Shown: positions 516-62,417 of the stretch, piece after piece
Layout of the letters: the number at the start of each line of letters is the position of its first letter
Numbering within the stretch: the first letter of the stretch is position 1
Assembly (NCBI GenBank): GCA_963693365.1
Contig: CAVNZM010000001.1
Coordinates: forward strand, 2,620,907 to 2,684,906
From: Amoebidium appalachense
Taxonomy: Eukaryota > Protista > Ichthyosporea
Direction of reading: 5' to 3'
Length of the DNA: 64,000 nucleotides
Notes under the pieces: generated by a model
Told to the model about the DNA's origin: nothing
Database searches by the model: none
Seen by the model: the letters and a program-made list of their open reading frames with translations, nothing else
Translations under genes and position numbers: made by a program

Positions 516-996
516 CGTACGCAAGTCAAAGCTGGAGCACTGTGGATGACATAGGGCCTTCCTGAAGATGTGCTCTGGTTCAATTAATGCAAACTCATAA
601 ATTTGGAGGTGTGCTTGCAATCTGCATTGTGTTGCCCGTGTAAACCTGTGCGCTCTGTAATGCATTATATCCCCCCCCCCCCCCCCCCCCCCCCCCCTTC
701 TGAATGGGACAATTTGCTCAGCTAACACCATCTTTTTCTCTCGGCCTCTTTCGTCCCCCCCCCCCCCCTCCCCCCCCCCCCCCCCCATGTGTCTCCCTTA
801 CCTCCACTTCTACACAGGCATGCACACCTGGATTCTTCACCCGCTGTGACTGACAGCATCGGCTCGTGCTTGCTTGCATGCTTGTGTACACTACCCCGTG
901 ACCTTTCACCTCTCCTCGACCCTAACCCCCCAAACCCCAAGCCGGCCCTTGACCCCTTCCCCCCCCCCCCTCCTCATTACCCAACACACACACAGA

Positions 997-12898: not shown

Positions 12899-15146
12899 AG
12901 ATAAGATAGACTCGTAAGTGCCGGAGCAGCATGAGCCGTAGTTGTGCTTGTATCAGGTGTAGGTATTACCGTGTACATGCATGCTAGTGCACACTGCTCA
13001 TATCACTGTGGGGGAGGCAGGGATCGAAAACCACACAGAGGTAAAAAAATCAACGTGGCCCCGTGTTAACAAAAAATGCGGAAAAGCAAGTGCGGAAAAG
13101 CAATCTGATAGTAAATAAAGAAATCTAGTTTTTTTTCCGGGGGGGGGGGGGGGGGGGTCTAGGACTTTGATAAATGCTGTGAGCAAGAACATCAGTGGGC
13201 AGTGATGGTTGTTGCACGAGGAAATTGGGCAAAGAGTTGCAAGTGTACAGCTTGCAGTGGAGATCACATGTGCCCGTACACAGCGAATATTTGCGAAAAT
13301 GAACACTGCATAGTAGTAACCACGATCACATTTCATCTTAAGCCTAATTTCTGGCACGCTAGTATTAGCCCATGTACCAAACAAGTAAGGCAAGTCAAAC
13401 ACTACGTACCTCCCGTTTCTGTGCTCCTGGCCATGCACATTGATCAATATAAAAAAAGACTGCGACCGAATCACGGTCACATACCCCCCACCTCCCCCGC
13501 CCCCCCTTCCCCACAACCACCCCCCTACAATACCCCTCAATTCACCTTCACCATTTCCCCTTCCCCCTTCTTCCTTCCCCTATCCTTTCATTCCCTCACC
13601 CCAATCCTGCGCTCCAACCCCACCCCTCAGTTCCCCTTCCCTCTTCCCCTGCCCCCTCCTTCCTGCCCCTCGCCTCCCCTTCCACCCCACCTCCCCTCCA
13701 CCCCATCTCTCAATTCCCTTTCCTCCTTCCCCCTTAACCCTTCCCCCCCCCCCCCCCCCCCTTCGCCTCCCCTTCTGCCCCACCTACCCTCCACCCCATC
13801 CCTCAATTCCCTTTCCTCCTTCCCCCTTAACCCTTCCCCCCCCCCCCCCCCCTTCCCCCTCTTCCTTTTCCCCCCTCCCTGCAAACCCCCACACCCACAC
13901 TCTTCCTCCCACTCCGCAAAGAAAGCCTCAGTATTACTTGGCAAATCCTGTTCCAGGGACACCATGCTTCACCACAATATGTGCACACACGCACGCATGA
14001 CACCTCACAGACTTAGTTATGCGATGCTTGTGCGCACGCACAAAACCAATATTAGCAGACATGAATGCGACAGCACAAGCACAAAACGTTACCCTAGGAT
14101 CAACTACTAGCATCCACACGTGCATACACACACTTCCTCCTCCCCAACCCTCCCCTCCGGTCCCCCACCAACAAAAAAGAAGAAAGATAAGAGGAAGCAC
14201 AGCTCAAGGAAAAGCAGTAGTTTTCTAAACGTGCTGTTGTAAAGAAAAATCACAGTAATACGACTTGTGATTTTCAAGCGCTTACCTGGTGGTTGCTTGG
14301 GTCGAACCCGTTTGAGCCCAGAATGCACTCTATTGAGCAATTTGTAGGTGCAACGACATCTGTGTCGATATACAGCCCTCCGTAGTGATAGAGGATAAGG
14401 TTCCGTGCTATGTCCCACTTCTGTATGTCCCCACAAACAGTGAGAACGCGTTGAAATTCTGGGAAATGCTCCGAAACCAACCGATTTATGTCGTTTTCCG
14501 TGTGCACCATCATTTTCCACCGGGGGTTCAGCCTGCGCCACAGAGCAAGACGAGTTCTTGGTTCCTCGTTTACGTTGCAGTTTCCAGCACACACGACGTG
14601 TATGGTTTTTACTCCTTGCGGCAGAACTTTGTCAAGATACAGGTGGTGTTTTTCTGGAAAAGTGGGAATAGAAGGTGTCCGCTGTTCGATTAGTGTCTTT
14701 ATGCTTCTACACACGGTGTCGGTGTCTACGTGCTCCGTGTCATCTCTATGAGGGGTGAGAAAACTGAGTTCTGAGCAGGAGTAAGGGAGCTGGGAGATAG
14801 CAAACGGGTCCTTAGCATTTGAGCTAGCCAAAGGTGGGAAAGTGTATTGAGGTGCCAATAGCATCCCTTTACCGTGCTTGATTTCGTTTTTCAGGTGGGG
14901 GTTGTGGAGGTTTGTTCCCTTGTTGTTCTGTGCACGCGTGTGTTTCCCTTCGAAGACAACTGTTGCTTGGTGAAGACCTACGGAGGGGCAAAGAGAAGCG
15001 ATAAATGCCAACTGGATAAGGAGAACAGCACAAACGACAAAAGAGCGAAACAATGTCAAAGAGGAGCGACCTTTTCTCGACTCTCCACCCAAACCAGAAG
15101 CGTTTTGAGGCGACTCTGCATGTCCTAGCGTCTTAGCTAGTGCCAT
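11342..15146 (-). CDS. Glycosyltransferase family 32 (DXD motif, Och1/Sur1-like), type II membrane protein, ~426 aa
   Basis: Exons 15146-14286, 12609-12472 and 11623-11342 with GT-AG phase-0 junctions. N-terminal TM segment FVVCAVLLIQLAFIASL. Motifs WRRLNPRW, KWDIARNLILYHYGGLYIDTDV, TTGPDVLT and HISTGTW are typical of GT32. Confidence 0.9.
13664..13860. repeat. Tandem duplication of a ~96-bp pyrimidine-rich unit in GT32 intron 1
   Basis: CCTCCACCCCATC..TCAATTCCCTTTCCTCCTTCCCCCTTAACCCTTCCCCC occurs twice in tandem. Confidence 0.8.
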
Positions 15147-16634
15147 TGTGTCAGAAGTACCTTACGAACGCTATAATGCTTGTTTGTTTTTTCACGAGGC
15201 AAAATTCACCGGGTGTATATTTCCCCAGCTTTTTTACCTACACGAACGCCAGCGCACAGATGTGTGCGCTATATGTCAGACTCCCTCGCAGAGTACGATA
15301 CCAATACTTATCACTACAGGGCAAAAGAAACTATACGGTAATGTGGCTGGAAGCGTGAAGACTAAATGCAAAGGAAAAACAAAACATCCCTTCGGAAAGT
15401 TTTGCTACTTGTATCTCGTCGCTAGCCGCAACTAAAACTGAAAAGCGCACCGCCGCGCGACTGCCTTTTTGTTCCCATTGCTGTCGACACTCCACAGTCG
15501 ATACTCGAGTACTCGCCGAGCCGACCGTCAGCGTTCCCACCAAGGGATTTGGCGGGAATTATAGACCAATCAATATTGAAAAGTTCATGAATGGTAACCA
15601 TATTGGGAGTTTTACAAAAAATTGATTGGTACAAATACCAACTCAAATCATTCTTGCGCATCATTGACGCAGCGGACACAACATAGCAGCACCACTGTGA
15701 CTCTCCGTGAGATGTGTTGTTAGTAGGCTAAGGTGAATACATGGTGGGAGTACATACAAAGCCGAGGCAATAGCGAGGAAATGGATGAAAGGAGGGAGAT
15801 ATTTGCTAACCGTTGAATACAGCTTGGTGTGAAGAAGACATGATCATATTTCATCGGAATGAATGCAGTGTAAACGCTGCAAGCACAAGTACTTCTTTGG
15901 GTCGTGAACATTATGGCATATGATCGATATAGGAATCGATATCGACCTAGTATAACAATGTTGCTATTACATAGTAGGATCGCCCTTGGGTACATACAGT
16001 GGGGGATTAGAAGCATTATTGCATACTGCCAACAACCATGATACTGAGGCCGGCCGTTAACAGAGGTGTACACGACGTGTACATGTCATGAGTATTAGAT
16101 CTATCACAGATGGACATGTGTGCTTCGGAAAGGGTAAAGTTTACATAATCTTCTTAGGGACTTTGCATAAAAGTATCTAGATCTCCATACATACGATATG
16201 CCATCTGCGGATATGGAACGAGTGAGTAATTGCACGGTGTACATCATGGGTGCGTACTGAGTGTGCACGTGGGGGCCCGGGAGTCAGCCTACAAAGCACC
16301 GCGGGGGGAGGGGGGAGGGGACGGGGAGGGGAGGGGGGGGGGGGGGGGGGAGGGGGGGAGGGGGTGTCACCGTTCGAATGGAGGGTTGGGGGGATCCGGA
16401 AGGGGAGGGAGACGGGTGGGGGGGGGGGGGGGAGGGGGGGGGGCGGGGGAGGAAGGGAGGGGAAGGGGAGGGGGGAGCCTGCGGGAGGGGGGCAGCTAGA
16501 GTATTAATTTTCGTCTTGGCTACACAGACTCGATCTACATAGACAGGATCCGGTGAAACAAGCTTAAGGCTAAAAAAAGTATGTGTGTGCACGCGCATGC
16601 GCGAGGGTGTGTGTGTGTGTGTTGAGGGCGAGGA

Positions 16635-18095: not shown

Positions 18096-19142
18096 CTATC
18101 CAGCATTTACAAGGTGACCCGACTGCGAGGGCACGGAAAAAAACGAAGACCCGTAGCTGCTGTAGCCGTCAGAGTTTTGTTCCAGGTCCACCGTGGGTGC
18201 CATATGGAACTCATCATACGACCCCAGCGAGGGATTCACCTGGTCGTCCAGGTTGCCCGCAGGGAGGCACCCTAGTGACCAGCTGGCGGCTGAGTGTCGC
18301 TGGTCCATATACTCCCACAACCCATCCTCCTCGGACGAGGTGTAAGGGGAAGAAAGAGCAGTGAGTTGAACACCAGCCACGGATGATCGGTGCTCCTGCT
18401 TAGTGCCGATAGTTGGGTTTGGTGGCGTAGATCTGGTGGGTACATCGGCTGCGAATCGTGATCGGGAGTGCACATGAGGCCAAGGAGGTGGAACCCAGGC
18501 ACACTCAACTGTCGCCTTGAAGTTCTTCCCCTCGTTGTTGTCCCAATACGATGTTCCACCCATGTTTACGGACAGTGCAAACTCGACCTCCATTCCAACA
18601 ATCATCAGCGATGATGGTAGTAGAAGGACAAACGTGAAGATGTCTACTGTCCCGGAAGAGCGGCTCCAGGAATACGACGAGCGCACATCTTGAAACGTAC
18701 ACCAGTGGTCTGTGGTGTATCGAACAAAAGCATCCTTCTCGTATTGCCAATTCTTAACAGAAAAGGATCCAGTAATTGCGTTGAGCCTCTCGTCGTATCT
18801 CGCAAACCCCAGGGAAATGACAGCGTTGTCGCGCCCACTTGGTCGCGTCAGAATCGTCAATGTGACACCGCGGGTGAAGGTGTTTTCCGATAATTGTTGC
18901 TCTGAGCATGAGGTTGAACGCTGGGTTCTTGACGGGTGTTCCAGTTTCCTAACATGTAAATGAGGCGCATTGCCGCAAAATGATGGGGGATCGTGCTTGC
19001 AAAACTCTTTCACGGCTGTGAGCGACTTCCCGGGGACAGCGTCCGCAAAGGAAACGCGTCGACGGGATAGTTCTTGGACGGTGACTGCGCTCAGGCAAGG
19101 TCTGAGCCACAGCTCGGACTTGGAGTCCAGTGTGTTGCACAT
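18096..19142 (-). CDS. Protein phosphatase 1 glycogen-targeting regulatory subunit (PPP1R3/Gac1-like; RVxF motif + CBM21 domain), intronless, ~348 aa
   Basis: RRRVSFADA is a PP1-docking motif. CBM21 signatures are GSFSVKNWQYEKDAFVRYTTDHW and YWDNNEGKNF. First ATG at 19142 (the ORF track starts at a non-ATG codon at 19199). Confidence 0.92.
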   Translation of the reverse strand: MCNTLDSKSELWLRPCLSAVTVQELSRRRVSFADAVPGKSLTAVKEFCKHDPPSFCGNAPHLHVRKLEHPSRTQRSTSCSEQQLSENTFTRGVTLTILTRPSGRDNAVISLGFARYDERLNAITGSFSVKNWQYEKDAFVRYTTDHWCTFQDVRSSYSWSRSSGTVDIFTFVLLLPSSLMIVGMEVEFALSVNMGGTSYWDNNEGKNFKATVECAWVPPPWPHVHSRSRFAADVPTRSTPPNPTIGTKQEHRSSVAGVQLTALSSPYTSSEEDGLWEYMDQRHSAASWSLGCLPAGNLDDQVNPSLGSYDEFHMAPTVDLEQNSDGYSSYGSSFFSVPSQSGHLVNAG

Positions 19143-20977
19143 TGCGATGTGCTTAGTGGCAAGGGCTGCCAGGATACGCGGGAAACGGGTGATAATCAAT
19201 TAACCTATCCACGAGCCTGCTTGTAATTCTAAATAATGAGAACTAGAACGCTAGATGTTGTCTATAATTATACTAGCCGGCATTGACTCCAGAGCTCTGC
19301 ACTGCCTTCTCAGTGTGCACCATGGACACGTGTTCGTGTGATTTCTTTCTTCTAACTTCAGCAACCAATCGAGTTCATCTTGTGTCCTACAATATAGAAC
19401 ACTCGCGGCGGAACAGTGTTGTGAAACTTGTTCACTAACTGGCAGTCTGTAGTAGAAATACTCAACACAGGCGGCATAGTAAGCGGGGTATATGCTCGTT
19501 GCCACGGCACAAGCAAGTTCTAGGGAAGGGGCCGCAGTGTTCACCGTTTGCAGACCGTCCAGAAGAAAAATTGAAGCAGGCGCTGATTGGTGTTTTTTGC
19601 AATTGTAATGAACGGGTGCAAACATTCTGTGAGATGACCACTCACATGCTGTTTGAAGACGTCGTCAACGTTGACACAATAGGTTGAAGCTGGAAAACTT
19701 TCCCACGAATAAAGAAAAATAAAAACATGGATTTTTGAAAATTCTGGCATATCAGTTAACCCTCGTAGTCCTCTTTTTTTTAATTTTTTTTAATAAGTTT
19801 TTTGTGATTGCGAATCAATGCCATTCATTCAAATAACCGTCACCATGACCCAGTCGCTGGCTGGTCGCAAATGTGCCTCACCAGTAGGATTTTGCACCCC
19901 CTCAGGGAATGGTTTTCCAGAACTGTAAGTATTACCAAATATGGTTGCTGGAAGATTCCCCGGCGAATCCCCGGCGGCCCCGCGGGCCCCGCCCAGGAGG
20001 TAGGCGTCATGATTGGATTCAGCGCCAGTTTTGTGCAGCCTACCAACCAATTAGGTACTATCCCTGGGATTCTTTCGTTTTCTACCAAAAAAATCTTTCA
20101 AAAAAAGTTGCCACCCCAGTGTAACATTTGTTCCACGAGACAGCGCCGGCGGCCCCAGCGCCGCAGTGGCCATTACAAAGTAGATAGGTCTCCCCTCGAC
20201 CAGTACTTTTCCGCCGGATTCGGTATGGACCGTGCTCTCCCGTTACTGTTACCCCTCTCGGAAATCATGCGGGCCCGACGGTATCCCGTGTGCACTGCTT
20301 AAAATCCTTGTCCCCCCCCGGCCAGACAAGGAAGAAGACCGTCCCCCCGGCCCCCCCCCCCCCCCCCCCCCCCCTCGTTGACGGTCATTCTTAGCACACT
20401 CTTCACATGGTTCTACAATACAGGTATGATTCCCTCGACAACGGTTAGACACTCTGGTGGTTCCCATTCGGAAGCAGGCAGCACATAGTACCATCGACGA
20501 GTTGGGGCCGAGGGGAAGTGACGTACATTTATCCAATAGAGTTGTGCAGTATTTTTGTGTGTTGGTCTGCATAACGGTTACGACTATTGTAAATATTCTC
20601 ACACCGTTACATACGTACCCTGTAAACACAAATTTTCGGATTTTAACCCCTAGCCGTTCGCCGATGCATTTTTGCATCATTTTCAAAAATAAATGCATCA
20701 GCGACCTTCGAAAATAAATAGCGCCTGGCGCGTAATAGTCATGACGCTAGGAATTTAAATTTGGCCTAACTTAGTATATGTTTTCTACTTTCAAAAACCC
20801 CAAAAAACACCGGGGTCGACTATGTTTTTCTGTTTCTCGTGGGTGGTTTGCCTAACTGTGTCTATATTTTCATCGAGCGGCCCCCAAATTTTCGAAGGCT
20901 GGCGGCAGGATCGGATGCCCGGGATTCACGGATTCCAACCCTGGAATCGATCGGCTGATATGTGCATCAATCCGATT

Positions 20978-21970
20978 CACCCCTCCATCCTTCTATTAGA
21001 CTTACATTTATTCGCACTTTTGTCTTCCCGGCATGTGAATATGGTTTACCCCTTCTCGCCGCTTGGATCAAGAAAGAGAGAACTAGAGCGCTTAAACCCT
21101 TGGCAAATTTCCTTGAAGCAGAAGTTGCCTCCTTTCTATCTAACAACTGTTGTAAACCTGGGCCTGTAACGCTCTCGATATATGGTCTGGTCCCAATAGC
21201 TGCTAGAGTATCCTATCTCGCGCTGAAATTCAATAAGCACATAAGCCGCTTAAAGAAGTATTTGCCCTCCCACCCTCTCTTCTCTATCCGACCTGTCCCC
21301 TCCTCACCTCTCCCCTCTTTCCTCCCCTCTCCCCCCGCTTCTCCCCTGGGCACAAATACATATAAACCCCGCAATAGTGTGTGTGTGACTTTAAATTTGG
21401 ACTGCCACTTACTTACTAAACATGTACACAATCACAAGATAATCACGCAATATAACAAATGGAAAAAGATACCACACGACACTAGACCCGATGAAAGCAT
21501 ACACCTTGAAAAACTAAGCCTTATGTCTCGTTTTATATATACTGACCGCCTCAACCATATTGCCAAATATGGCACTCGCAAATGTATAACACCTAAATAC
21601 ATATTACCTTCCTGTAGAACTGGTCTTTCTCTAGCTGATGGTATTATTGATCAATTACCACGCTTTTACTGTACACGTGCTATACAGTGGAGATCTAATA
21701 AGTATAAGGTGGCATCATTTGCATGCCCAAACAACACACACACACACCAGTTTAACCGGTCATGTATCGCCAAATACAGTTTGATAGACCACATAATACC
21801 GCAACACACACGTCACATTCACAACAGACACCCAGAAAGATAGCCTACCTGTAAATTACAACATCCTTGATTTTATACTAAACACGCGTAACTACGACCT
21901 GTTTATTAGATGTATTGATTGGCTTGAGAAACACATCACTACAAAATTATAGCGCACGCGCACACACACA

Positions 21971-22047
<77 letters not shown>

Positions 22048-22081
22048 CCAGCTGATACCGAGTGTCCCAAGGGGAGCCCCT

Positions 22082-22112
<31 letters not shown>

Positions 22113-22320
22113 TAAAAAAAAGGGGAACCCCAACTAATTGATTTCTCCTTGTAGTCTTTATGGTGTCTCGTAGAGAAAGTAAACCCTGATATATAGTCAC
22201 CACCCGACATCTATGTACGTGATCATGATATACCGCTGAGGGGATATTCCGAGCAACCCCCCCCCCCCCATACCTGAGACTGGTTCTCTTTGCCTCGAGT
22301 AAACAGCGTAAACCCCCTCC
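20978..22320 (+). mobile_element. 5'-truncated non-LTR retrotransposon, copy 1 (C-terminal ORF fragment + 3' region)
   Basis: 10-bp TSD CAATCCGATT at 20968-20977 and 22321-22330. ORF fragment IRLTFIRTFVFPACEYGLPLL resembles the post-RT region of LINE ORF2, followed by a Cys/His region. A 2-bp frameshift in a CA run near 21805 distinguishes it from copy 2. Near-identical to 39288-40377 (-). Confidence 0.85.
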
Positions 22321-25381: not shown

Positions 25382-37949
<12,568 letters not shown>

Positions 37950-39287
37950 GCTGCGCCACCTCACCCAAATACATCACGGTGCCCTGTAGCCATATACAAG
38001 CACCTGGAAACGGTGTCCAGAGGTGTTAGGAAGAGACCATGATGAACCAAGAGGGTGATAGACAAACAGCAGTTGCTAAGAAGATTGGATATGATGAAGA
38101 TTGATTGCTCTTGGTAAAGAGTTGAAGGGAGAGAGAGTGAGAAGAGTAAGGAGTGTAGGGAGCAGGAGGACGGGTGTGGGAGGACGGCCTGGGGAGGGGG
38201 TGGGGGGGAGGGAGGGGGGCGGGGAAGCTAGGGAAGTCTGCCTGAAAGTTAATGTGGCATAGGAAACTAGAGCTTGCCTTGCACATCGTGAAGCTCTTAT
38301 AAACGTATCATCTGCGTACACACAAACGAAACTATGGAAAAATGCAGGTGCACCATGGGAAGTGCAGGTCATAGCACAACGTTTGTGTAGGTACCGTTAG
38401 CGCCAATGTATAGAAATAGCGTGCTTACTTGGCTTGCTCGTTTGGTCAATTTCAGTGAAAAACTACGCAGGATGTAAGGTCCCAAGTCTGGTTTTGTCAC
38501 TCAGGATGACTAAGCGTCTGAGTGAGGCAGCAGTCGGTTAGCAGTCGCTTAATTTTGTATATGAAGTCGAGAAAATATATAGGGAAAAAACGTGCCATGT
38601 GCATGTGCCAGGAGGTAACATGGAGGGGTGGGCAACACACAACCAGAAAAGGGAAAGTCGTTGGCCGAGCGTAAGGGGAAGCTACTCAGTCACTTACGTG
38701 TACAGCGGTTTGGCGGTCAGAGTGATGTGTCTCTAATTTTACGGATCAGGTCTCGCGGTGCACCAGAAATAAGCCTCCCGTTGTATGGATCTGACGTTCA
38801 TGAAAAACTGTCTACCCACGGTGCAATTTGAATGTACGTACGAGTTGCCACTGATGGTAACTCAGTGATGTGAGATTCAATAGGTAAAGCGGACGTCAAC
38901 CATAAATGGTATACTTGGTGAGGCGTATTATGCCACCAATACGATAAAACCCTCGTTGCACGTGTAACCCAACAAAACATCGGCTCCAAAGCCCGTGTCT
39001 GTGCTTCAGAGGTGTGTCAGCACGCCACAGATGTAATGGTCAGAACACCACAACGCGTGGTGTCCAGACCATAATATCAAACCCTCTTCTTCGTGTGTGG
39101 AATATCTATCATAAAAAGGCTGAACTTCAACACAGCAACCTTTACATATGATACCTTCTAAGTAGGTAAACTGAACAGTCTCTGTTAACGTTGAAACTGC
39201 GCCTTTTTTGCCCGCCAAAAATCACCGGCCGGCGGGCCGGCGCCAGCTGGCGATTTTTTTGTTTACGGCTCAGAGACGTCATCAAGG

Positions 39288-39481
39288 GGGTTTACGCTGT
39301 TTACTCGAGGCAAAGAGAACCAGTCTCAGGTATGGGGGGGGGGGGTTTGCTCGGAATATCCCCTCAGCGGTATATCATGATCACGTACATAGATGTCGGG
39401 TGGTGACTATATATCAGGGTTTACTTTCTCTACGAGACACCATAAAGACTACAAGGAGAAATCAATTAGTTGGGGTTCCCC

Positions 39482-39526
<45 letters not shown>

Positions 39527-39558
39527 GGGCTCCCCTCGGGACACTCGGTATCAGCTGG

Positions 39559-39611
<53 letters not shown>

Positions 39612-40377
39612 TGTGTGTGTGTGCGCGTGCGCTATAATTTTGTAGTGATGTGTTTCTCAAGCCAATCAATACATCTAATAAACAGGTCGTAGTTACGCGT
39701 GTTTAGTATAAAATCAAGGATGTTGTAATTTACAGGTAGGCTATCTTTCTGGGTGTCTGTTGTGAATGTGACGTGTGTGTGTTGCGGTATTATGTGGTCT
39801 ATCAAACTACATTTGGCGATACATGACCGGTTAAACTGGTGTGTGTGTGTGTTGTTTGGGCATGCAAATGATGCCACCTTATACTTATTAGATCTCCACT
39901 GTATAGCACGTGTACAGTAAAAGCGTGGTAATTGATCAATAATACCATCAGCTAGAGAAAGACCAGTTCTACAGGAAGGTAATATGTATTTAGGTGTTAT
40001 ACACTTGCGAGTGCCATATTTGGCAATATGGTTGAGGCGGTCAGTATATATAAAACGAGACATAAGGCTTAGTTTTTCAAGGTGTATGCTTTCATCGGGT
40101 CTAGTGTCGTGTGGTATCTTTTTCCATTTGTTATATTGCGTGATTATCTTGTGATTGTGTACATGTTTAATAAGTAAGTGGCAGTCCAAAGTCACACACA
40201 CACTATTGCGGGGTTTATTTGTATTTGTGCCCAGGGGAGAAGGGGAGAGAGAGGGGAGGAAAGAGGGGAGAGGTGAGGAGGGGACAGGTCGGATAGAGAA
40301 GAGAGGGTGGGAGGGCAAATACTTCTTTAAGCGGCTTATGTGCTTATTGAATTTCAGCGCGAGATAGGATACTCTAG
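39288..40377 (-). mobile_element. 5'-truncated non-LTR retrotransposon, copy 2
   Basis: TSD CATCAAGG at 39280-39287 and 40378-40385. The ORF fragment is open to ...YNILDFILNTRNYDLFIRCIDWLEKHITTKL*. Truncated ~220 bp further 3' than copy 1, with the same 3' end. Confidence 0.85.
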
Positions 40378-41310
40378 CATCAAGGTTATGACGAGCGGTC
40401 GACGGGCCACCGGCCAGCCAGCCGGCCCCCAGCCCCGGCTGCCCGGGGCCCTGGCCCTCAGGCTCTCTCGGCTGAGCTTTTTGTAGATAGATTTGCTGTT
40501 CTTGTATAAATGCAGTCACTCTTCATTTTAATCGATCCTCACCCTTCCCTTTATCACCAGGCAGAAGATTTTCTTTACCATGATGAATAGGGCTCCGAAT
40601 TCATGTGGAGTTCACTTTCGGCCTTGGCCATGCATTTGACACCCCCTCCTTCATTTGTCATAAACCAATCATACAGAACAAAGCTCATTAGTTAAAACAA
40701 CTAGATAGCCACAAAGATAACCATTTTTGGAAGTACTTTGAAGTGAAGTCTTGATATTCTTATCTAACTCAAATATTTAGCTTGCAGCCAGCAATTTTTT
40801 AAAAAAAAATGTATATTTTATAGTTTTATAAACAACCTCTTTTTACTATTTAGCCAAGCAAGGGACATATTTATAATATGCCGCTGCTTCTTCATGATTT
40901 TGCATAGCTCAATTTTCTTAGAGGGGGTGCAAATTCATTTACATGTCGCACTCTAAAAAGAATCTGTTCAGTTTCACTTGTTGAAGCTTTCCCTCACACA
41001 AGCAAACGCAGACACAGAACCAGAACAGCCTTTTACGGTTTGACCATCCTTCGTAACATCGTGGGTCGGTAAAGAATTAGAAGCTGAGGAGCGTCCACAT
41101 TGAACCTTTTTTCCCCCTCCTTAATAAGGCTTTTCACATGATATGGTATTCTTGGTACTCGTTCTTTGAACAAAGTTTGAATTATAGGAAGCAGAAGTAG
41201 TCAGCTTTGATAGGTCTGGTTGTTTGGACGCGATAGCCCAAGAAGCGTATTTACTCGAATTGGGAAAGCATCTAAGTCACCGAAGTTTCTTCTGACGCAC
41301 AAACTACAAG

Positions 41311-44220: not shown

Positions 44221-44255
<35 letters not shown>

Positions 44256-44316
44256 GTGCCTGTTGTTTTGCTTGTCATTTGTTGTTCTGGTTGATTACCT
44301 GTAATCTTCGCTTATT

Positions 44317-44358
<42 letters not shown>

Positions 44359-45682
44359 GTTGTGCGGGGTTGCACATACCGGTGTCTACTTTTCTTCTTA
44401 CTGTTTTTCTCTCCACACACTTCATCTGTCCACTTCTGCATACCCCCTTTCATAGCTATAGACACACTTCACACATTGCGTTACGCGCACGCATGCACAC
44501 ACCGCTCTGTTGGCGACAGCTCCCTTGGAACCCATGCGGCATGTTACCCGCCGGCGTAACATAACTCGGACTATCGGTTTGGCTTTTTTCAAGCCCAAAG
44601 CAATGGGTGATACCATATTTCCGGCTGACATCCGGGGGCATAGCTTTCCGTTCGAAGACGATAAAGTTCCGCCCTAGTAAGCGTGTTACTACCCTGCGGC
44701 GTGGGTCAAATCTCATATTTTCCCCTCTGATTACGAATTCTGCGGCCTTCGGGACTTAATTCTTTTCAGCTGGTGTAGTATGTTAGCCAGGGAAGTATCG
44801 ACTTAGGTATCGACGGGGGAGCTTCCTAGAAGCCCCGTCTCCTGAGTTCCTATCTATATTTTTCTTGCTTCTGCTTACTGCTGCAACTTTAACCCCCGGC
44901 CTTTCCCACTGCCCTTGCCTGCATAAGCAACCCTGCTCGTCTCTGATCAAGACGGGTGACCTACTCATGTTCAAGTGAAACAGTATCTGAGTTGGGTTTC
45001 GTTAACGAGGGGAATAGGTCGAAACTCGGGTACTGTGGATGACGTGGGCCCCCCCTGAGGATGGGCTCTGCTTATTATGCATACTCTTTATGTATGGCTT
45101 GCATTCTGCATCGTGTTATCCGTTTGTTCTTGTGTACTTCGTACTTTTTGACGCATTCAAACCCCCCCCCCCCCCCCCCCCCCCCCCCGCCCCTGTATGA
45201 GTTATTTGCAATCTGCATAGTGCTCCCCGTCCTGAAGGTGTACTTCGTCCTCTTTAATGCATTCTACCCCCTCTTTCCCCCCCTCTCTCTTTGCACCCCC
45301 CCTCCCCCCCCCTCCCCCCCCCCCCCCCCCCCCCCCTTCCCCGTGACGGATACTTTTCATGTGTACGGTGGACTGTGTATTGTGTTGTACGTTATGGTTG
45401 TGTATTTCGTAGTCTGTAACACATTCTAAAAGCCTTCTCCCTCCCCCACAAACCACCACCACCACCATTATCGCATGGCGTGTGTACGTGCACGGACACA
45501 CATGCGTGTACACACACGCCATAACAAACCTATGTTTGGTTCTTTTTGTCAATTTTTACCACTCCTCATGCGTGTTGTTTTCTATAGGATCTTCTCTGTG
45601 TGTTTTCTTTTTGTTCCCCCCCCCCCCCCCCCCCCCACCGTATAACGTAATGCACGTGCACACGTGCACACATATCACCACA

Positions 45683-47474: not shown

Positions 47475-47759
47475 GTGACCTACTCATGTTCAAGTGAAAC
47501 AGTATCTGAGTTGGGTTTCGTTAACGAGGGGAATAGGTCGAAACTGGGGTACTGTGGATGACGTGGGCCCCCCCTGAGGATGGGCTCGATGGGCTCTGCT
47601 TATTATGCATACTCTTTATGTATGGCTTGCATTCTGCATCGTGTTATCCGTTTGTTCTTGTGTACTTCGTACTTTTTGACGCATTCAAACCCCCCTGCAT
47701 GTGTCCTGCACCACGCTTCTCGTCGTGTATGCGTACTTCGTACCGTGTTCCGCATTCAA
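47475..47759 (+). mobile_element. (C)n-tailed family: subfamily B copy (47475-47689) followed in tandem by a subfamily A fragment (47696-47759)
   Basis: C-runs lie before, between and after the two pieces. The B copy has an internal 9-bp duplication GATGGGCTC. Confidence 0.85.
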
Positions 47760-47955
47760 CCCCCCCCCCCCCCCCCCAGTTACCACTAGGGCCTTCCCGT
47801 TCCAAAATCAAACCCAGCCTACAATGCACATGCATGCCCAGCCAAAATAACAGTCAAGGGACGTCCCCCCCCCCCTCCCCCCGCCCCAAAGCCCCATCTG
47901 GCCCCACATGGCCCGCCCGGTCCCCCTTACATACCCCACACAAAAACACGCACAA

Positions 47956-51923: not shown

Positions 51924-53081
51924 CTAATTCTGTGCCTGGCGAAGGCCGACCAACTCAGCCTTCAGCTGCTCATTTTCCCGCGACAACTCGGCAACTCTTT
52001 GCTGTAGGGCTGATATGTTCATACTCTGTGCCAAAATATCCTCATCTGTCCTTGCATCAGGGCCAGGAATCATTGGTGCACTATCAGGTGCAGGAATCGC
52101 ATTGGTTGCTAGTTCTTGGGATCTGTTTTCGGCACCCAGGTCTGGAAGGGGAACCAACACAACTTCGCTCTGACTTGGTCCGTGTGGTGTAATCATTGCC
52201 AATGCAGAATTCGACGGGGTAGATCGACGCAAATGTGCAAGCGATCCACCACGAGTAATCGACGTTGCTGATTGGCTGCAACCAGCTGCGGGCTCTTTCA
52301 ATTCTTCGATCTCAGGATCGCTGCATCGTGTTTGTTCACGAGCCTTTTGTGAATGACGTGCCTCCTGTCGTAGGCCAGCCGACATGCGGTAACCGGCCGT
52401 CTGCCTGCCCAGATGTGTTGACATGGATGAGGACCTGGTGCCAATGCCACTGTGCGATTTAAAATTACGATCGCGATCGGTGGTGCCGGCAGTGGATTCC
52501 GACCACGATGAGAACCCGTGCAGGTGGCGTGCACACCCCCAGAGGGATAAGACTTTTGGAAGGAGGAAAACGGTTAAGGCGCCAACAAGTGCAAAGAAGA
52601 GGCAGGCGCTGTAGAGGATAAGCATGGCTTCGGTGCTGCCCAAATTTTGAAGTGCAACTCCCGCCAATATGCCGACCAATAGGACGTTGTAGACGAACAC
52701 GGTGAGGAATTTGCCTTCCTGGTACTCGGAGGGCACATGGTACACCTGCAGGGTGTGGGTGGGTGGGTGGGTGGGTCAGTGGTTGGGGGGGGGGTGTGGG
52801 AGGGCTTCGGTAGTGATGATAGTGGTGGAGGAGGGGTGGGGGGAAGGGGGGGGGACACGGGAAGGGGAGGGGGGGGGGGGGAGGGAGAGGGAGGGGGGAA
52901 GGGGGGAGGTAAACATTCGGCAATGGTGGATGGGGGCAGGGAGGGGGGGGAAGGTGAGAGCTGGGCGGCCGGGGGAGGAGGGGCGGAAGAGAGAGAAAAG
53001 GGGGGGGGAGGGGAGGGGGGCGGGGGGGGGGGGACATCTCAGTGTGTGCTGGCAGAGCGAAAAAAGGGTGGACGGGGGGAA

Positions 53082-53117
<36 letters not shown>

Positions 53118-53641
53118 AATGAGCCATAAAATACGAAGTACACATTCACAAGTGACAACACCATGCAGAGTGCAAACCACAAAGAGTATGCATAAAAAGC
53201 AGAGCCCATCCCCCCCGGGGGGTGAGGGGCGGGGAGGGGGAGGAGGGGGGGGAAGGGGGGGGAGGGGGGGGGGGGGGGTCAGAATTTAGCGAGAAATATG
53301 CACTAGCGAGAAATGTGGACTGAGTTTGAAAAACTATGCCGGATGTGTTCCAGTTACCCAGTTAGCTATGGTGCTGTACAGGCCAGATTTACGGGTGTAA
53401 ATCGTGCTGATGGATATTTCTGAGTCACGGAACCGGGAGGTCCGAGGGGATGGCTCCTAAGTGTCTTCTTGAGACAGAGAGGGAGGAGTGTAAGGGGCAC
53501 CGAGACTCGCCACGCGGGGGGAGGGGGGAGGGGGGGGGGGGGGGGGGGGGGGGGGGCTATGTATCTTAATCGAAAGAAAGGAGGGGTGTAGGGGAGGGGA
53601 AGGGAAGGGGTGGGAAGGGGTGGGGGGGGGGGGGTTGGGGG

Positions 53642-53686
<45 letters not shown>

Positions 53687-55748
53687 CTATCTACACCTTG
53701 AATGACAGGATGCAGCAGGCGAGCAGTAGCAGCAGTGTGTAAGCAATCAGAAGACCCAGGGCAGGCCCCATGACCACTCGGGGCACCATGATGGGCACAC
53801 TGGTCGTGAGGGATGTCGACTCCTCTCCGTCCCCTCCCAAAGCCGTCACACTCACCCCGCTCACTTGCACCTCTACTGGCGTGGTGAGAACCATCGCAAT
53901 TAAAAGTACTACTTGCACACCAACAAAAATGGCAAGCGGCACGAGGAGCGTGGTGTCTGTAAGCCGCCATGGAATCCACTTACGGATGCGTTTCCCACTG
54001 AAGCACGCGAAAATGCGAATAATTTTGACTAGGAGACTAGCGAGAACCACACCCATCCCTTGGAAGAACACCCACGCCGCCGCCGTATACCGTGCGGAGC
54101 TAGGTGGCCCGGCCAGAAGAGGAATGGAGAGGAGGGCAAGGGCACAGCCCAAGGCCATCACACAGCAATAGAAGGGACTGGCACTACGCATGACCTTGTA
54201 GTTGCGCAAAACAAGGACTAGAATGGCAACAAAACTACTGTACGCAATCCCAATCGCGCCAAAAATGGTAACAGCAACACCTGCTGTGGACGTCCAGGCG
54301 ACGTGTTCGCACTTAACGGTGGAAGGCGGCGGAAGGAAGTCGCTGGTTTCCGGATTCACGCGGCACGACGGCACGTGTTCGCCGGTGCTCATGTTGTACT
54401 CGCGCCAATCATAGCTCACCGTGATGATGTTGGTGGTGGGATCACACTCGGATATGGTAGGGGCCAGGTGGCGGCGGTATGTGCACGTGGGTAGAAACAC
54501 GTGATCCATCACGCGACATGCTGCATGTGTGGCCTCGATTAAGGTCGCGTTTTTGGCAATTAAGGCCGCCATCATATGACGCAACGGCTTGGCCTCGGTA
54601 AAGTCAGAAATCATTGGTGGGGCACCGAACGGATTGCCCAATGAAACACCGTGAGGGTACTCCGTTGCTATTCTCTGGAATCTGGCTGTGCCCGTTTGGT
54701 TCATCCATTTGTGCATGTGGGTGCCTGCAAACGTAAAAGGCGGCACCATCCCCATTGCGTTGTTCATCGATGCGAAAAACCTGAGAGAAGTGGTCGTGAG
54801 GTCAAAAAGCAGTTGCCACGATCCCATGAAATTCCGATTGCGCGATGTGATTGAAATTCCGTATCCGAAGAGGGTAGAGGTCGCGTTGGGGGGAACACCG
54901 AGCCTGATATCCGGGTCAGTGGGGGGCGGCTCGTCCGATTGGGTGAGGGAAAGTGGAGGCACCGGGCGGGCTGGATCGTAAAAAACGAATGGTGGGCTGG
55001 GTGGAAGTGGAATTTCGGGCCAGGATTCTGCCCATCTGATGAAATTCGGGTCATTCGTGGGGAGGAATGTGCGGTCTAGGAGGTTTTCGTTGATCAGCGG
55101 CATTATTGATTGGTTGAGGGCTGATAGGAAGCGGGGGGACTGCAGGTTGCATATGTAGTCACTGGGGCTGTCACTGATGGACCTGCATGGGGGTGGGTGT
55201 AAGTGCATGTGCGTGCAAACGGGGGGAAGGGGGGGAGGGGAGGGAGAGGGGGGGGAAAGAGGAGAAAGGGGGAGGAGGGCTTATGTAGAAGAGTTGAGCC
55301 TGGCACCCAGAATGTGAGGGGATTGGGTGCAGGCGAGAAGAGGTGAGGGGGGAGGGAGAGAGGAGGCGGGGAGGGGGCGGACGGAGGTGGGTGGGTGGGG
55401 AAAGGGGCTGCAGGGGTGGAGGTGGGGAGGGTTTACGGGGGTGGTGGGAAGATGTGGGGGGTGGAGGGGGCCGAGGGGGAAGGGGGGAAGGGGGGGGGGG
55501 GGGGGGGGGGGGGGAGGGGAGGGGGGACTGTGTGCTATTAATGGCGCCCACATGTGGCTGGTGTGTCTGTGCCTGAGTGCTCTCCTTTGCCTGACGCTCA
55601 GAGTGCGCCTGCACGTGCGCAAAGGCCCATTGTGCATAGGGATGTGTTCGTACAGTAGTACTATAGTGTTGCTGTTGGGAAGAGGGGCAGGCGGAGGTGG
55701 GGAGGTGGTGAGGGGGAAAATTTGAAGGTGGAAGGGGGGAAGGGGCGC

Positions 55749-55779
<31 letters not shown>

Positions 55780-57948
55780 AGGGGGTAGGGAGAGAGAGGG
55801 TGTGGCTACGGTTAAGGGAGATAGGAGTGAGGGCGGTTACTTGAAATGAGGTAAGCGAAAATGTAATGAAGGGAGAGTTGCCCAGGGGCCACAGGAGGAA
55901 GCAAAAGAAGAGGTGGGAGAGGGGCAGGGGAGCAAGTTAAGGGGAGTGCAAGTGTTTCAGCCTGTCGTTTTGTGATTCTGTGGGTGTAAAATACAACAAA
56001 AGGGAAAAAGAAAGGGGGGGGTAAAAAAAGGCAAAAAAAAAAAAAAAAAAACCCACCACACACATACCTCAGGAACATGTCACCCTGGATGGTGTTGATC
56101 AGACCCAGCTCCTCATCATACCCGGTGGCAAACCCCACCGAGGGCTTGCTGGTGTTCTTGCTGATGGCCCGGGCTGCATTGACAAAGTCCTCCCACAGCC
56201 AGCGGTTGTAGATGCCGTCGGTGCTCCCATTGGTAAGCGCCTTCCAGTACAGGCCTGGTGGGGTGAAGTTGTGTGAGTGTCTCGTCCTTTATCAGATAAT
56301 GCTTTTTCCTTTCTTTCTTTTTTTTTTTTGGGGGGGGGGGGGGGAGGGGGGGGAGGGGGGGGGAGAGGGGGGGGGGGGGGGGGGAGGATAAGGGTGCGTT
56401 GTGTGTTCATGCATGTTAAATGGGTTGTGTAGGGGGGTTTTTTGGTACCGAGGGGGGAGAGGGGGTTGGGAGGTTGGGGTTACAGAGTTTGTGTGTGTGT
56501 GTTTATGTGTGTGTGTGTGGGGGGGGGGGGGGGGGGGGGGCTGACCTGAAAGCTTAAAAAGAACGGCAATTTGACAAATATCTTTTGGGATTGGCGGGGC
56601 ATGAGAGGAAAGGGTATGGACCGAAAGTTGTGTGGAATGGGTGCCCATTTGTCTATCTTTTGATTTCTAGGAGTCATTCCTCGGACGATCCGTCCGACAA
56701 AAGAGGGGAAGAGGAAGGGAGAAGGGAGGGTGGGGTGGGGGGGGGGGGGGAGGAGGGGAAGGGGGGGGGGGGGGGGGGGGGGGGAGAGGGCGAGGTTTTG
56801 TGAAATGAGTAAAAAGATAGAACAGTGGCTGTCAGGGGTAGAAGCAGAACAGTGTTTTTTTTCCTTTTTCTTTTTCTTTTCTTTTTTTTTTTTTTTGTTG
56901 GGGGGGGGGGAGGGGGGGGGCATACCATATTCCCTTTCATCTAAAATCATTGGTGGAGGGTCAACACCTGCGGCTTCGAATGCGCTTTTACTGTACTGGG
57001 TCAGCTGGGTGCCCATCATGAAGGGGATAGCAGCCCAATCATCCATGGCAATGCGGAAATAGGGCACAAGGGGTGGGTGCACCATGTCGAACATTAGTGG
57101 CCGAATCATGGCCGTTGTGCTTCTATCACGCTGCCGATAGTGCATGACGCGTATTTGCGGATTCATGTCGGCCAGAAGTCCCTTTCGGCGCAGGAGACGC
57201 ACGTCTGTATGCCGCATTATGACAAGGTCTGGATATTCGTAGGGGTCAATCTCTACTTTTTGTTCGTTTTCTACTTGTGTTGTGTTTGTCGCTTTGATGA
57301 ACCGCTCCATTCCCACCCACCCGACAATGTAGAGGTCGATAATCACGTGGTTTCCCGTGAGACTAGCACTGTGGCGGGAACACATCTCGTACTGTGCAAA
57401 TCCATCATGAGTAAATGCAGAGAAAATTTCGTGAGAGAGTTGAGAGAAGGGGATTGTTGACGTGAAAGGAGAAGGAAAAGGCTCTGAGAAGGAAGGAAAG
57501 GGCAGGGAAGTAGTGTGTGTGTGTGTGCCAGTGTGTGTGCCTTGGGTATGGGTGTTGAGGGGCAGGGGGGAGGGGGGGGGAAGGGGGAGCCTGGGAATTG
57601 GGCGGGGTACGGAAGGGCCGGGGGGGGGGGGGGGGGGGGGGAAGGGGGGGGGGGGGGGGGGGGGAGGGATAATATAAGATTCTAAAAACGCAGCCCTATT
57701 AGGCCTCGCTCGACATTATTTTAGGACTCAGGAGACAAAAATCAATACACACACGATTGCATATTAGCACCATCGCACAAAAAGAAGAACTTGGCACACA
57801 CACACACACAATGCCGTGCAACACACACAAGTTACCCACACACACGCGCGCGCACACACGCACACGTGCTGCCGCTGGGCACACACACATGTGCACACAC
57901 ATATGCACACGGACACGCACATGCACACACACACGTGTGCGCGCGCGT

Positions 57949-61952: not shown

Positions 61953-62417
<465 letters not shown>

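What the first reader, a model, noticed from the sequence alone, without database searches (positions are those of the whole stretch)
44921..45080. Covarying kink-turn/double-pseudoknot RNA that assembles a full hammerhead core in a non-canonical order
Seen: copy B (here, and at 47475) and diverged copy A (26153-26348, minus strand) share a fold supported by compensatory changes. (i) A long stem AUCUGAGU/ACUCGGGU in B versus GUCUGAGU/ACUCAGAC in A. (ii) A canonical-looking kink-turn GUUCA-NNU-GA...GA-UGAC in both. (iii) Pseudoknot 1, GACCUA/UAGGUC in B versus GACCCUU/AGGGGUC in A, immediately followed by GAAA. (iv) Pseudoknot 2, GGG/CCC in B versus GGAG/CUCC in A, immediately followed by CUGAGGA. 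(v) An inner hairpin of different sequence in each. G-U pairs indicate the strand. Known: the hammerhead core is stemI-CUGANGA-stemII-GAAA-stemIII-UH. Inference: pseudoknot 2 is stem I, pseudoknot 1 is stem II and the long stem is stem III, with cleavage after GUU at 44993. The strand order (UH, then GAAA, then CUGANGA) fits none of hammerhead types I-III. The k-turn could fold the apical loop back onto the base, and extra helices (44921-33/45063-80 and hairpin 44934-58) would sit between A9 and stem II. This could be an undescribed ribozyme topology that standard descriptors miss. Stem I is only 3-4 bp and only two distinct variants are available.
Basis: partly seen in the sequence, partly recalled or inferred. 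Interest (0 to 1): 0.92.

Follow-up and report, generated by a model that had tools for sequence, protein, structure and literature searches.

The report
Split-core rewired hammerhead in a retroelement
The tail of a small repeat that is scattered through this eukaryote's DNA, likely a jumping element, holds every conserved letter of a hammerhead self-cutting RNA in a knotted order with the core split in two, so it probably cuts RNA, most likely only when two copies come together, though cutting has not been tested.

Summary
Helices, kink-turn and all hammerhead core letters are present in two diverged families. Of 26 pairs, 5 change on both sides and 1 breaks. 0 of 20,000 shuffles match. The motif lies about 100 nt from the fixed 3' end of a non-coding, (C)n-flanked, 5'-truncated repeat of at least 795 nt, probably a non-autonomous Penelope-like element.

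The strand order is not new: it is type SGC (Eckert 2023). My searches found no description of one feature: stem II's G10.1 strand lies upstream, so the CUGANGA block that Eckert assumed unbreakable is split and bridged by two helices. By eye, 4 of 37 published Naiad tails (a ctenophore, three near-identical corals) show the same wiring in unrelated sequence. This scan noted similar rearranged kink-turn hammerheads earlier in animal genomes.

Most likely two copies complete each other; a switch that opens the arm is the main rival. Cleavage is untested (about 0.8 that it cuts in some form).

The parts
44367..45161 (+). Non-coding dispersed repeat, family B, longest copy in the window. The 5' edge may lie further upstream, in microsatellite that the read tool skipped.
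   Evidence: contigs of 4 of 4 laid runs cover it; summed depth in X3 rises towards the 3' end; no long open frame in 44250-45000
44920..44933 (+). P0 5' strand; pairs with 45063-45081
   Evidence: duplex -14.4 kcal/mol with B downstream, -15.0 with A downstream; family A shares 44913-44957
44935..44957 (+). P0a hairpin, 8 bp, self-complementary hexamer in the loop; ends directly before G10.1
   Evidence: a hairpin with the same first and last four letters sits at the same place in ctenophore and coral Naiads (by eye)
44958..44963 (+). Stem II 5' strand (G10.1 first), displaced upstream of the cleavage block
   Evidence: 2 two-sided changes B vs A; T44962C 3.7% with A45016G 3.1% in X3; -6.7 kcal/mol against +2.3 for the strand after the core
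44964..44973 (+). C-stem 5' strand; predicted equivalent of the helix that ties stems I and II in type SGC
   Evidence: T44965C (U.G to C-G) at 35% in X3
44974..44979 (+). Kink-turn bulged strand: 3-nt bulge, G1b, A2b, 3b
   Evidence: sequence; definition in PMC5061560
44980..44992 (+). NC helix and stem III, 5' strand, 13 bp with 45024-45036
   Evidence: mean pair probability 0.98-0.99; G45028A (G.U to A-U) 4.6% in X3
44991..44993 (+). GUU triplet; predicted cut after 44993
   Evidence: analogy to the hammerhead core; not tested
44994..44996 (+). Stem I 5' strand, 3 bp with 45052-54 (3-4 bp in A)
   Evidence: one two-sided change
44997..45010 (+). Inner hairpin; variable between families; its core is a palindrome in both B and A
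45015..45024 (+). Stem II 3' strand and GAAA
45024..45048 (+). Stem III/NC 3' strand, kink-turn GA, C-stem 3' strand; the same length in families A, B and C
45049..45062 (+). 3-nt linker, stem I 3' strand, CUGAGGA core, extra U after A9; the internal C-run where several short copies begin
45063..45081 (+). P0 3' strand
45082..45161 (+). 3' tail of the element, ending A-rich against a C-run (45162-45188)
47475..47689 (+). Copy B', 5'-truncated at the 3' foot of P0a; one stem III mismatch and a 9-nt duplication
26153..26348 (-). Copy A, diverged family, 5'-truncated at the same place
520..670 (+). Decayed copy of a third family: kink-turn strand kept, core CUGAAGA, GAAA block damaged

Best explanation
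The tail of this (C)n-flanked repeat, likely a non-autonomous Penelope-like retroelement, carries a complete set of hammerhead core letters in SGC order with the core split between A9 and G10.1, and it is predicted to cut after 44993, most likely when the apical loop of one copy docks on the basal loop of a second copy. Shown: the sequence, the covarying helices, the repeat context. Inferred: P0 and P0a stack as one helix whose nick holds A9 and G10.1 together, at the step where natural hammerheads tolerate an extra base. Inferred: the C-stem ties the far ends of stems I and II, as the I-II helix of type SGC does. Inferred: the kink-turn arm is too short for a single molecule to reach its own apical loop, so a lone copy (for example a unit-length or circular RNA) would be spared. 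Transcripts with two copies would be cut into units for retrotransposition by an autonomous partner that was not found here.
For: Core letters and stems in canonical register in two families, including G10.1-C11.1, A15.1-U16.1 and C15.2-G16.2. N7 alone varies in the third family's CUGANGA. Null 0 of 20,000. Read-level variants keep or improve pairs at 44962/45016, 44965 and 45028. Type SGC cleaves in vitro and needs its I-II helix (PMC10085705). An extra base between A9 and G10.1 is tolerated, and U is the best one (PMC3705267); it is common in PLE hammerheads (PMC4209133). The same split wiring with P0/P0a occurs in 4 of 37 Naiad tails read by eye, which are two independent sequences. Geometry: no closure in 0 of 20 parameter sets at 6-9 C-stem pairs; two copies need a 50-degree bend at each junction and three copies about 10 degrees. 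PLE hammerheads that work only as dimers are a precedent. 15 of 20 family pieces end at a C-run, against a 5% background.
Against: There are no cleavage data. Stem I is only 3 bp (-2.5 kcal/mol), and a rival hairpin (45046-51 with 45063-68) hides the core in several minimum-energy folds. No window copy begins at the predicted cut. The ctenophore homolog, and the coral homolog in a shifted register, have arm lengths that fit a single molecule (mismatch 4 and 1 A against 46 A here), so the class does not need two copies in general. Opening the C-stem costs only about 1.7 kcal/mol in A and 6-7 in B in a model without kink-turn stabilisation, and closure becomes possible at 4-5 retained pairs (12 and 4 of 20 sets). 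The geometry is a coarse axis model with recalled dimensions. Conservation of the core is not clearly above that of the 14 nt behind it, and the read-level test is not significant (P=0.33). No RT gene and no tandem full copy were found in the window. 0 of 20 green-algal Chlamys tails showed the motif by eye.
Confidence: 0.42

Rival explanations
1. The same split-core hammerhead cuts within one molecule after the outer C-stem, or all of it, opens. The paired kink-turn arm, perhaps clamped by Snu13/15.5K, would be the off state.
For: Low opening cost in A, 1.7-1.8 kcal/mol. Closure in 12-20 of 20 sets at 4 or fewer pairs. The inner four C-stem pairs are invariant while the outer ones vary. Single-molecule-compatible lengths in Naiad homologs, and two alternative registers in the coral one.
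Against: It discards the helix that ties stems I and II, which type SGC needs. The outer C-stem is kept by one two-sided and two one-sided changes. Opening costs 6-7 kcal/mol in B, about what stem II returns.
Confidence: 0.3
2. A hammerhead-derived fold that no longer cuts, or cuts negligibly, is kept as a protein-binding or RT-recognition signal at the element's tail.
For: 3-bp stem I and competing folds. No copies start at the cut. PLE minimal hammerheads cleave poorly in vitro.
Against: All catalytic letters are kept across families that differ at 21 of 80 positions, and in unrelated Naiads with the same wiring.
Confidence: 0.17
3. It is an ordinary type-SGC hammerhead: the strand right after the core forms stem II (with a U insertion and a bulge), and the upstream strand is an inhibitor.
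For: A G-C pair can form at 45063-45020; the A family can form 6 bp with one bulge.
Against: Energies are +2.3 (B) and -1.3 (A) against -6.7 and -9.3 kcal/mol for the upstream strand. Covariation follows the upstream strand. In the Naiad homologs the post-core strand pairs with P0. The same reach problem applies.
Confidence: 0.07
4. The resemblance to a hammerhead is chance within a structured repeat.
For: The descriptor was fitted after the fact. There are only two full variants in the window. Rfam finds no hammerhead.
Against: 0 of 20,000 shuffles, covariation, independent homologs.
Confidence: 0.02

Closest known systems
Type-SGC hammerhead ribozymes (HRIMA-1 and variants; Eckert et al. 2023, PMC10085705)
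   Same: Block order S, G, C; two pseudoknots in the core; a helix tying the far ends of stems I and II; all conserved core letters.
   Different: Here block C is split: the stem II strand lies upstream and P0/P0a bridge A9 and G10.1. The paper assumes at most 1-2 nt at that step, and the one descriptor I saw (type CSG) fixes G directly after CUGAUGA. Both strands of the I-II helix run into stem III through a kink-turn. Stem I is 3 bp against 5 bp. The host is a nuclear repeat, not a metatranscriptome RNA. Cleavage is not shown.
Tails of Naiad Penelope-like elements (Craig et al. 2021, PMC8557442, File S5; ctenophore Naiad_Bfor, coral Naiad_Amil/Aacu/Anas)
   Same: By eye the same split-core SGC wiring, with P0, a P0a hairpin with the same end letters, a 6-bp stem II from the upstream strand, and a C-stem. 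It is placed near the 3' end. The paper reports that these elements lack canonical hammerheads and flags only 'core' or 'half core' strings.
   Different: Unrelated sequence; no standard kink-turn in the coral copies (7-nt bulge); arm lengths fit one molecule. They are autonomous elements that prefer (TA)n. Five nematode Naiads instead carry an unsplit type-CSG form.
Chlamys Penelope-like elements (same paper)
   Same: Insertion at (C)n, frequent 5' truncation, 3' ends of A-rich letters against C-runs.
   Different: No RT or GIY-YIG gene was found here; 0 of 20 algal Chlamys tails viewed showed this motif.
Minimal dimer-dependent hammerheads of PLE pseudo-LTRs and retrozymes (Cervera and de la Pena 2014, PMC4209133)
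   Same: Position in the element's terminal repeat, extra base after A9, G10.1-C11.1, and the predicted need for two copies.
   Different: Those are type I with a missing or tiny stem III. Here stem III is long and the second copy would supply CUGANGA and half of stems I and II.
Standard kink-turns (HmKt-7, box C/D; PMC5061560)
   Same: 3-nt bulge with G.A and A.G pairs. 3b.3n is A.G in B, as in Kt-7, which folds with ions alone. It is U.U in A, box C/D-like (recalled).
   Different: The -1 pair is A-U, not C-G. One search found no paper describing a kink-turn in a retrotransposon hammerhead.

Membership tests
Hammerhead ribozyme | CUGANGA directly 3' of stem I | tested here: met
   45052-61 in B, same in A
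Hammerhead ribozyme | GAAA between stems II and III, A15.1-U16.1, NUH site before stem I | tested here: met
Hammerhead ribozyme | G10.1-C11.1 opens stem II | tested here: met
   44958-45020, but supplied by an upstream strand
Hammerhead ribozyme | Self-cleavage after H17 | not testable with these tools
   only contigs were listed, no raw RNA reads
Hammerhead types I, II, III | Three-way junction without pseudoknots (orders CGS, GSC, SCG); Rfam model match | tested here: not met
   order is S-G-C; Rfam 0 hits at gathering score and no hammerhead among 3 hits at E<=5
Type-SGC hammerhead | Order S, G, C | tested here: met
   sequence; definition
Type-SGC hammerhead | Block C unbroken: stem II strand within 1-2 nt after CUGANGA | tested here: not met
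   post-core strand +2.3/-1.3 against upstream strand -6.7/-9.3 kcal/mol; covariation follows the upstream strand
Type-SGC hammerhead | Helix joining the far ends of stems I and II | tested here: met
   C-stem, 9 pairs, 1 broken in A; its role is inferred
Type-SGC hammerhead | Folds as one molecule | tested here: inconclusive
   coarse model: no with 6 or more C-stem pairs, possible with 4-5 or fewer
Standard kink-turn | 3-nt bulge followed by G.A and A.G | tested here: met
   44974-78/45038-39 in B, same in A; definition
Standard kink-turn | Kinks and binds an L7Ae-family protein | not testable with these tools
   -1 pair is A-U, not the C-G of Kt-7 and U4
Naiad/Chlamys Penelope-like element | Microsatellite targeting, fixed 3' end, variable 5' truncation | tested here: met
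   15 of 20 pieces end at a C-run against 5% background; 10 of the 20 were used to build the model; depth gradient
Naiad/Chlamys Penelope-like element | ORF with N-terminal GIY-YIG and RT | tested here: not met
   no long frame in the element; no PLE RT motif in six frames; no RT among 12 of 133 long frames scanned with Pfam. At most a non-autonomous derivative.
Naiad/Chlamys Penelope-like element | Partial tandem copies (pseudo-LTRs) | tested here: inconclusive
   only nested head-to-tail 3' pieces in C-runs; the read tool skips the repeats at both ends
Non-LTR retrozyme | Tandem arrays and circular RNA | tested here: inconclusive
   no joint from the 3' end to the start was listed, but the ends were skipped; the whole element folds no better than shuffles, z=+0.97

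The most novel reading that the evidence does not exclude
A natural hammerhead whose catalytic block is cut in two and rebuilt by an inserted coaxial helix, shared by Penelope-like elements from ctenophores and corals to this microbial-type eukaryote.
Probability: 0.3. Interest if true: 0.9.

Novelty: new variant of a known kind. Interest (0 to 1): 0.7.

Why it matters
It would break the assumption that the three hammerhead blocks cannot be interrupted, which limits current descriptors to six permutations. It would also explain why the large Naiad/Chlamys clade was reported to lack canonical hammerheads while showing orphan core strings. A descriptor with a split block C is easy to write and could show many missed ribozymes in eukaryotic genomes. 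If two copies are required, it is a second, independent way in which Penelope-like elements make cleavage depend on tandem copies, and a natural kink-turn-shaped RNA assembly. One transcription gel with a few mutants decides it.

Tried and rejected
No whole genome is held, so copies could not be collected genome-wide. No read-level variant table for family A was obtained, so variation within that family is open.

Rfam: 0 hits at gathering score in the window; 3 weak unrelated hits at E<=5. ARAGORN: 0 genes, so no tRNA-derived head was found.

Pattern scans: 2 loci in viral contigs and 118 in metagenome contigs, where the scan stopped after 22 of 64 parts. Of these 120, none showed the helices: 11 loci (13 rows) passed a loose descriptor, with stem III of 4-6 bp only. 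The best-looking one (L085) has no stem II longer than 4 bp and appears to lie in coding sequence.

No RNA holder listed; three runs are only guessed to be RNA. Two X13 contigs end at 44995, next to the predicted cut, but this follows from the 31-letter graph (variant at 44965 plus 30), so I rejected it as evidence of cleavage. Summed depth is not a copy number.

HDV-like fold: considered by eye and dropped, because no nested P3/P1.1 arrangement fits. Viroid-like rod: z=+0.97 and +0.21 on the two strands. Minus-strand reading: no CUGANGA there and weaker folding, -45.8 against -54.8 kcal/mol.

Four short window motifs searched in the Craig supplement gave no sequence homolog. Sequence look-up in earlier findings: nothing; genome look-up: nothing; a second word look-up: nothing.

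Literature searches found no description of a split-block or kink-turn hammerhead. The library lacks most subscription papers, and figures are not held. Eckert's supplementary alignments were searched only by term, and bioRxiv supplements were not seen.

Full report
Setting. The window is eukaryotic, microsatellite-rich DNA with many C and G runs and calmodulin, class C GPCR and CBM21 genes. No genome is held. The finding lies about 100 nt upstream of the fixed 3' end (45161) of a dispersed repeat. A profile of ten window copies finds 25 stretches, 20 of them at E<0.01, and 15 of those 20 end at a C-run, against a 5% background; ten of them went into the model. Contigs of four public runs cover 44367 to about 45152 as one deeply covered unit, with summed depth in X3 rising from about 7e4 to 1e6 towards the 3' end (not a copy number). 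20 of 24 listed runs, from 7 studies, hold at least half of its words, and 6 may be the source of this DNA. The element has no long open frame, and the window shows no Penelope-type RT motif. (C)n targeting and 5' truncation are described for Chlamys Penelope-like elements (PMC8557442; passages and section 9 read), so a non-autonomous PLE is the likely identity. This is inferred; the partner was not seen.

Observation. B against A: 26 pairs, 16 same, 4 one-sided, 5 two-sided, 1 broken. None of 21 differences in 80 positions hits the 13 core positions (P=0.013), although the 14 nt after the core are equally conserved. In run X3, T44962C (3.7%) and A45016G (3.1%) have matching frequencies, and T44965C and G45028A turn wobbles into Watson-Crick pairs. 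G45011T, G45044T, C45049T and C45052T cannot be judged alone. The absence of core variants among these 8 positions is not significant (P=0.33). The strand from A15.1 to the core has the same length in families A, B and C. A post-hoc descriptor matches only B and A in the window, 0 of 20,000 element shuffles and nothing in 150 window shuffles. Family A shares 44913-44957, and that strand pairs with both families' post-core strands (-14.4 and -15.0 kcal/mol), so P0 and P0a belong to the motif.

What is known. Eckert et al. 2023 (PMC10085705; introduction, sections 7 and 13-16, part 1 of the discussion and supplement passages read) divide the hammerhead into blocks C, G and S and show that type SGC cleaves (0.007-0.19 per min) and needs a helix tying stems I and II. 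The order here is SGC, so the order is not new. They assume the blocks cannot be interrupted by more than 1-2 nt. Here the strand after CUGAGGA makes a poor stem II (+2.3 and -1.3 kcal/mol), the upstream strand a good one (-6.7 and -9.3), and covariation follows the upstream strand. The chain is therefore opened between A9 and G10.1. That step tolerates an extra base, best a U (PMC3705267, passages), and usually carries one in PLE hammerheads (PMC4209133, parts 1-2 of 4). A U follows A9 here. I infer that P0 and P0a stack as one helix whose nick keeps A9 next to G10.1. From recall, the metal site uses the A9 phosphate and N7 of G10.1, not the bond between them.

Independent homologs. Earlier notes of this scan reported rearranged kink-turn hammerheads in animal genomes and pointed to Naiad tails. 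I checked the published consensus file by eye, about the last 230-500 nt of 37 Naiad and 20 Chlamys records (not a computed search). 4 of 37 Naiads have the same split wiring in unrelated sequence: the ctenophore Naiad_Bfor and three near-identical coral records. They show P0, a P0a hairpin with the same first and last four letters as here, a 6-bp stem II from the upstream strand starting with G-C, a C-stem, stem III ending GUA, stem I and CUGAUGA. 5 of 37 (nematodes) carry an unsplit type-CSG form with the equivalent tying helix. Several others have core strings in wirings I did not resolve. 0 of 20 algal Chlamys tails showed the motif. The paper states that Naiads lack canonical hammerheads; it flags Bfor only as 'HHR_core' and does not flag the corals.

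Geometry. Stem III stacks on stem II, and a kink-turn has a 50-degree included angle (PMC5061560, passages). With recalled helix dimensions, the far end of stem II is 60-68 A from the kink, the C-stem is 9 bp, and the two join with no linker. The length mismatch is 46 A here, against 4 A for the ctenophore element and 37 or 1 A for the two registers of the coral one. So the paired kink-turn arm and an intramolecular core exclude each other in this family. Either a second copy supplies the basal half, or the arm opens (cost 6-7 kcal/mol in B, about 1.7 in A, without kink-turn stabilisation). A closed ring of two copies needs a 50-degree bend at each junction and a ring of three about 10 degrees. 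Engineered kink-turn rings exist (PMC5058347, search listing only). I favour two copies because that keeps the tying helix that type SGC needs and repeats the logic of dimer-only PLE hammerheads, which spares unit-length RNA. The margin over the switch is small, 0.42 against 0.30.

Against. No cleavage data; a 3-bp stem I; a competing hairpin over the core; no window copy starting at the predicted cut; no homolog among 120 scanned loci; no RNA holder on record. Family A's internal variation was not obtained. Two other papers were checked by passage and add nothing on this wiring (bioRxiv 10.64898/2026.07.22.740005, abstract and passages; PMC13725137, passages); PMC3376415 gave only a reference.

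Verdict. Real feature. It works like a type-SGC hammerhead but fails one defining feature of that type, so it is a new variant of a known kind. Nine literature searches found it undescribed, within a library that lacks most subscription papers. Probability that it cuts at 44993|44994 in some form is about 0.8. Interest 0.7.

Noticed in passing
window 44956-44957 (copies at 47475+ and 26348-): Both long truncated copies, from different families, begin within 2-5 nt of the 3' foot of the P0a hairpin, with no C-run there. This may be an RT stall at the hairpin or a second processing site.
   Followed up: partly
window 45000-45007, 26291-26300 (approx., minus strand), 44944-44949: The inner hairpin core is a perfect palindrome in both families (8 and 10 nt), and the P0a loop holds a palindromic hexamer; these are possible extra dimer contacts.
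   Followed up: no
window 45131-45143: A small hairpin around UUCG near the 3' end recurs in most family pieces; possible RT recognition signal.
   Followed up: no
window 45162-45430, 47690-47777, 33850-34040: 3' pieces of several related families are nested head-to-tail in C-runs, as expected if each insertion leaves a new C-run target.
   Followed up: partly
window 44600-44900: The element body holds a long imperfect hairpin (about 44720-44900) and several short ones, though the whole element folds no better than shuffles.
   Followed up: partly
window 21201-22318 and 39285-40379: Inverted pair, 95-99% alike over about 1.1 kb, with a 294-aa frame that looks by eye like the end of a non-LTR retrotransposon ORF; no Pfam match.
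   Followed up: partly
window 8376-9275 +: Cysteine-rich repeat frame with a scytovirin-like Pfam match, E=6e-8.
   Followed up: no
window 61953-62417 +; 51924-57715 -; 18096-19199 -; 14274-15161 -: Host genes: calmodulin, class C GPCR exons, CBM21 protein, DXD glycosyltransferase.
   Followed up: no
PMC8557442 File S5: Five nematode Naiad tails carry complete type-CSG hammerheads, a type known from only two sequences in Eckert 2023; spider and ostracod tails show further core wirings.
   Followed up: partly
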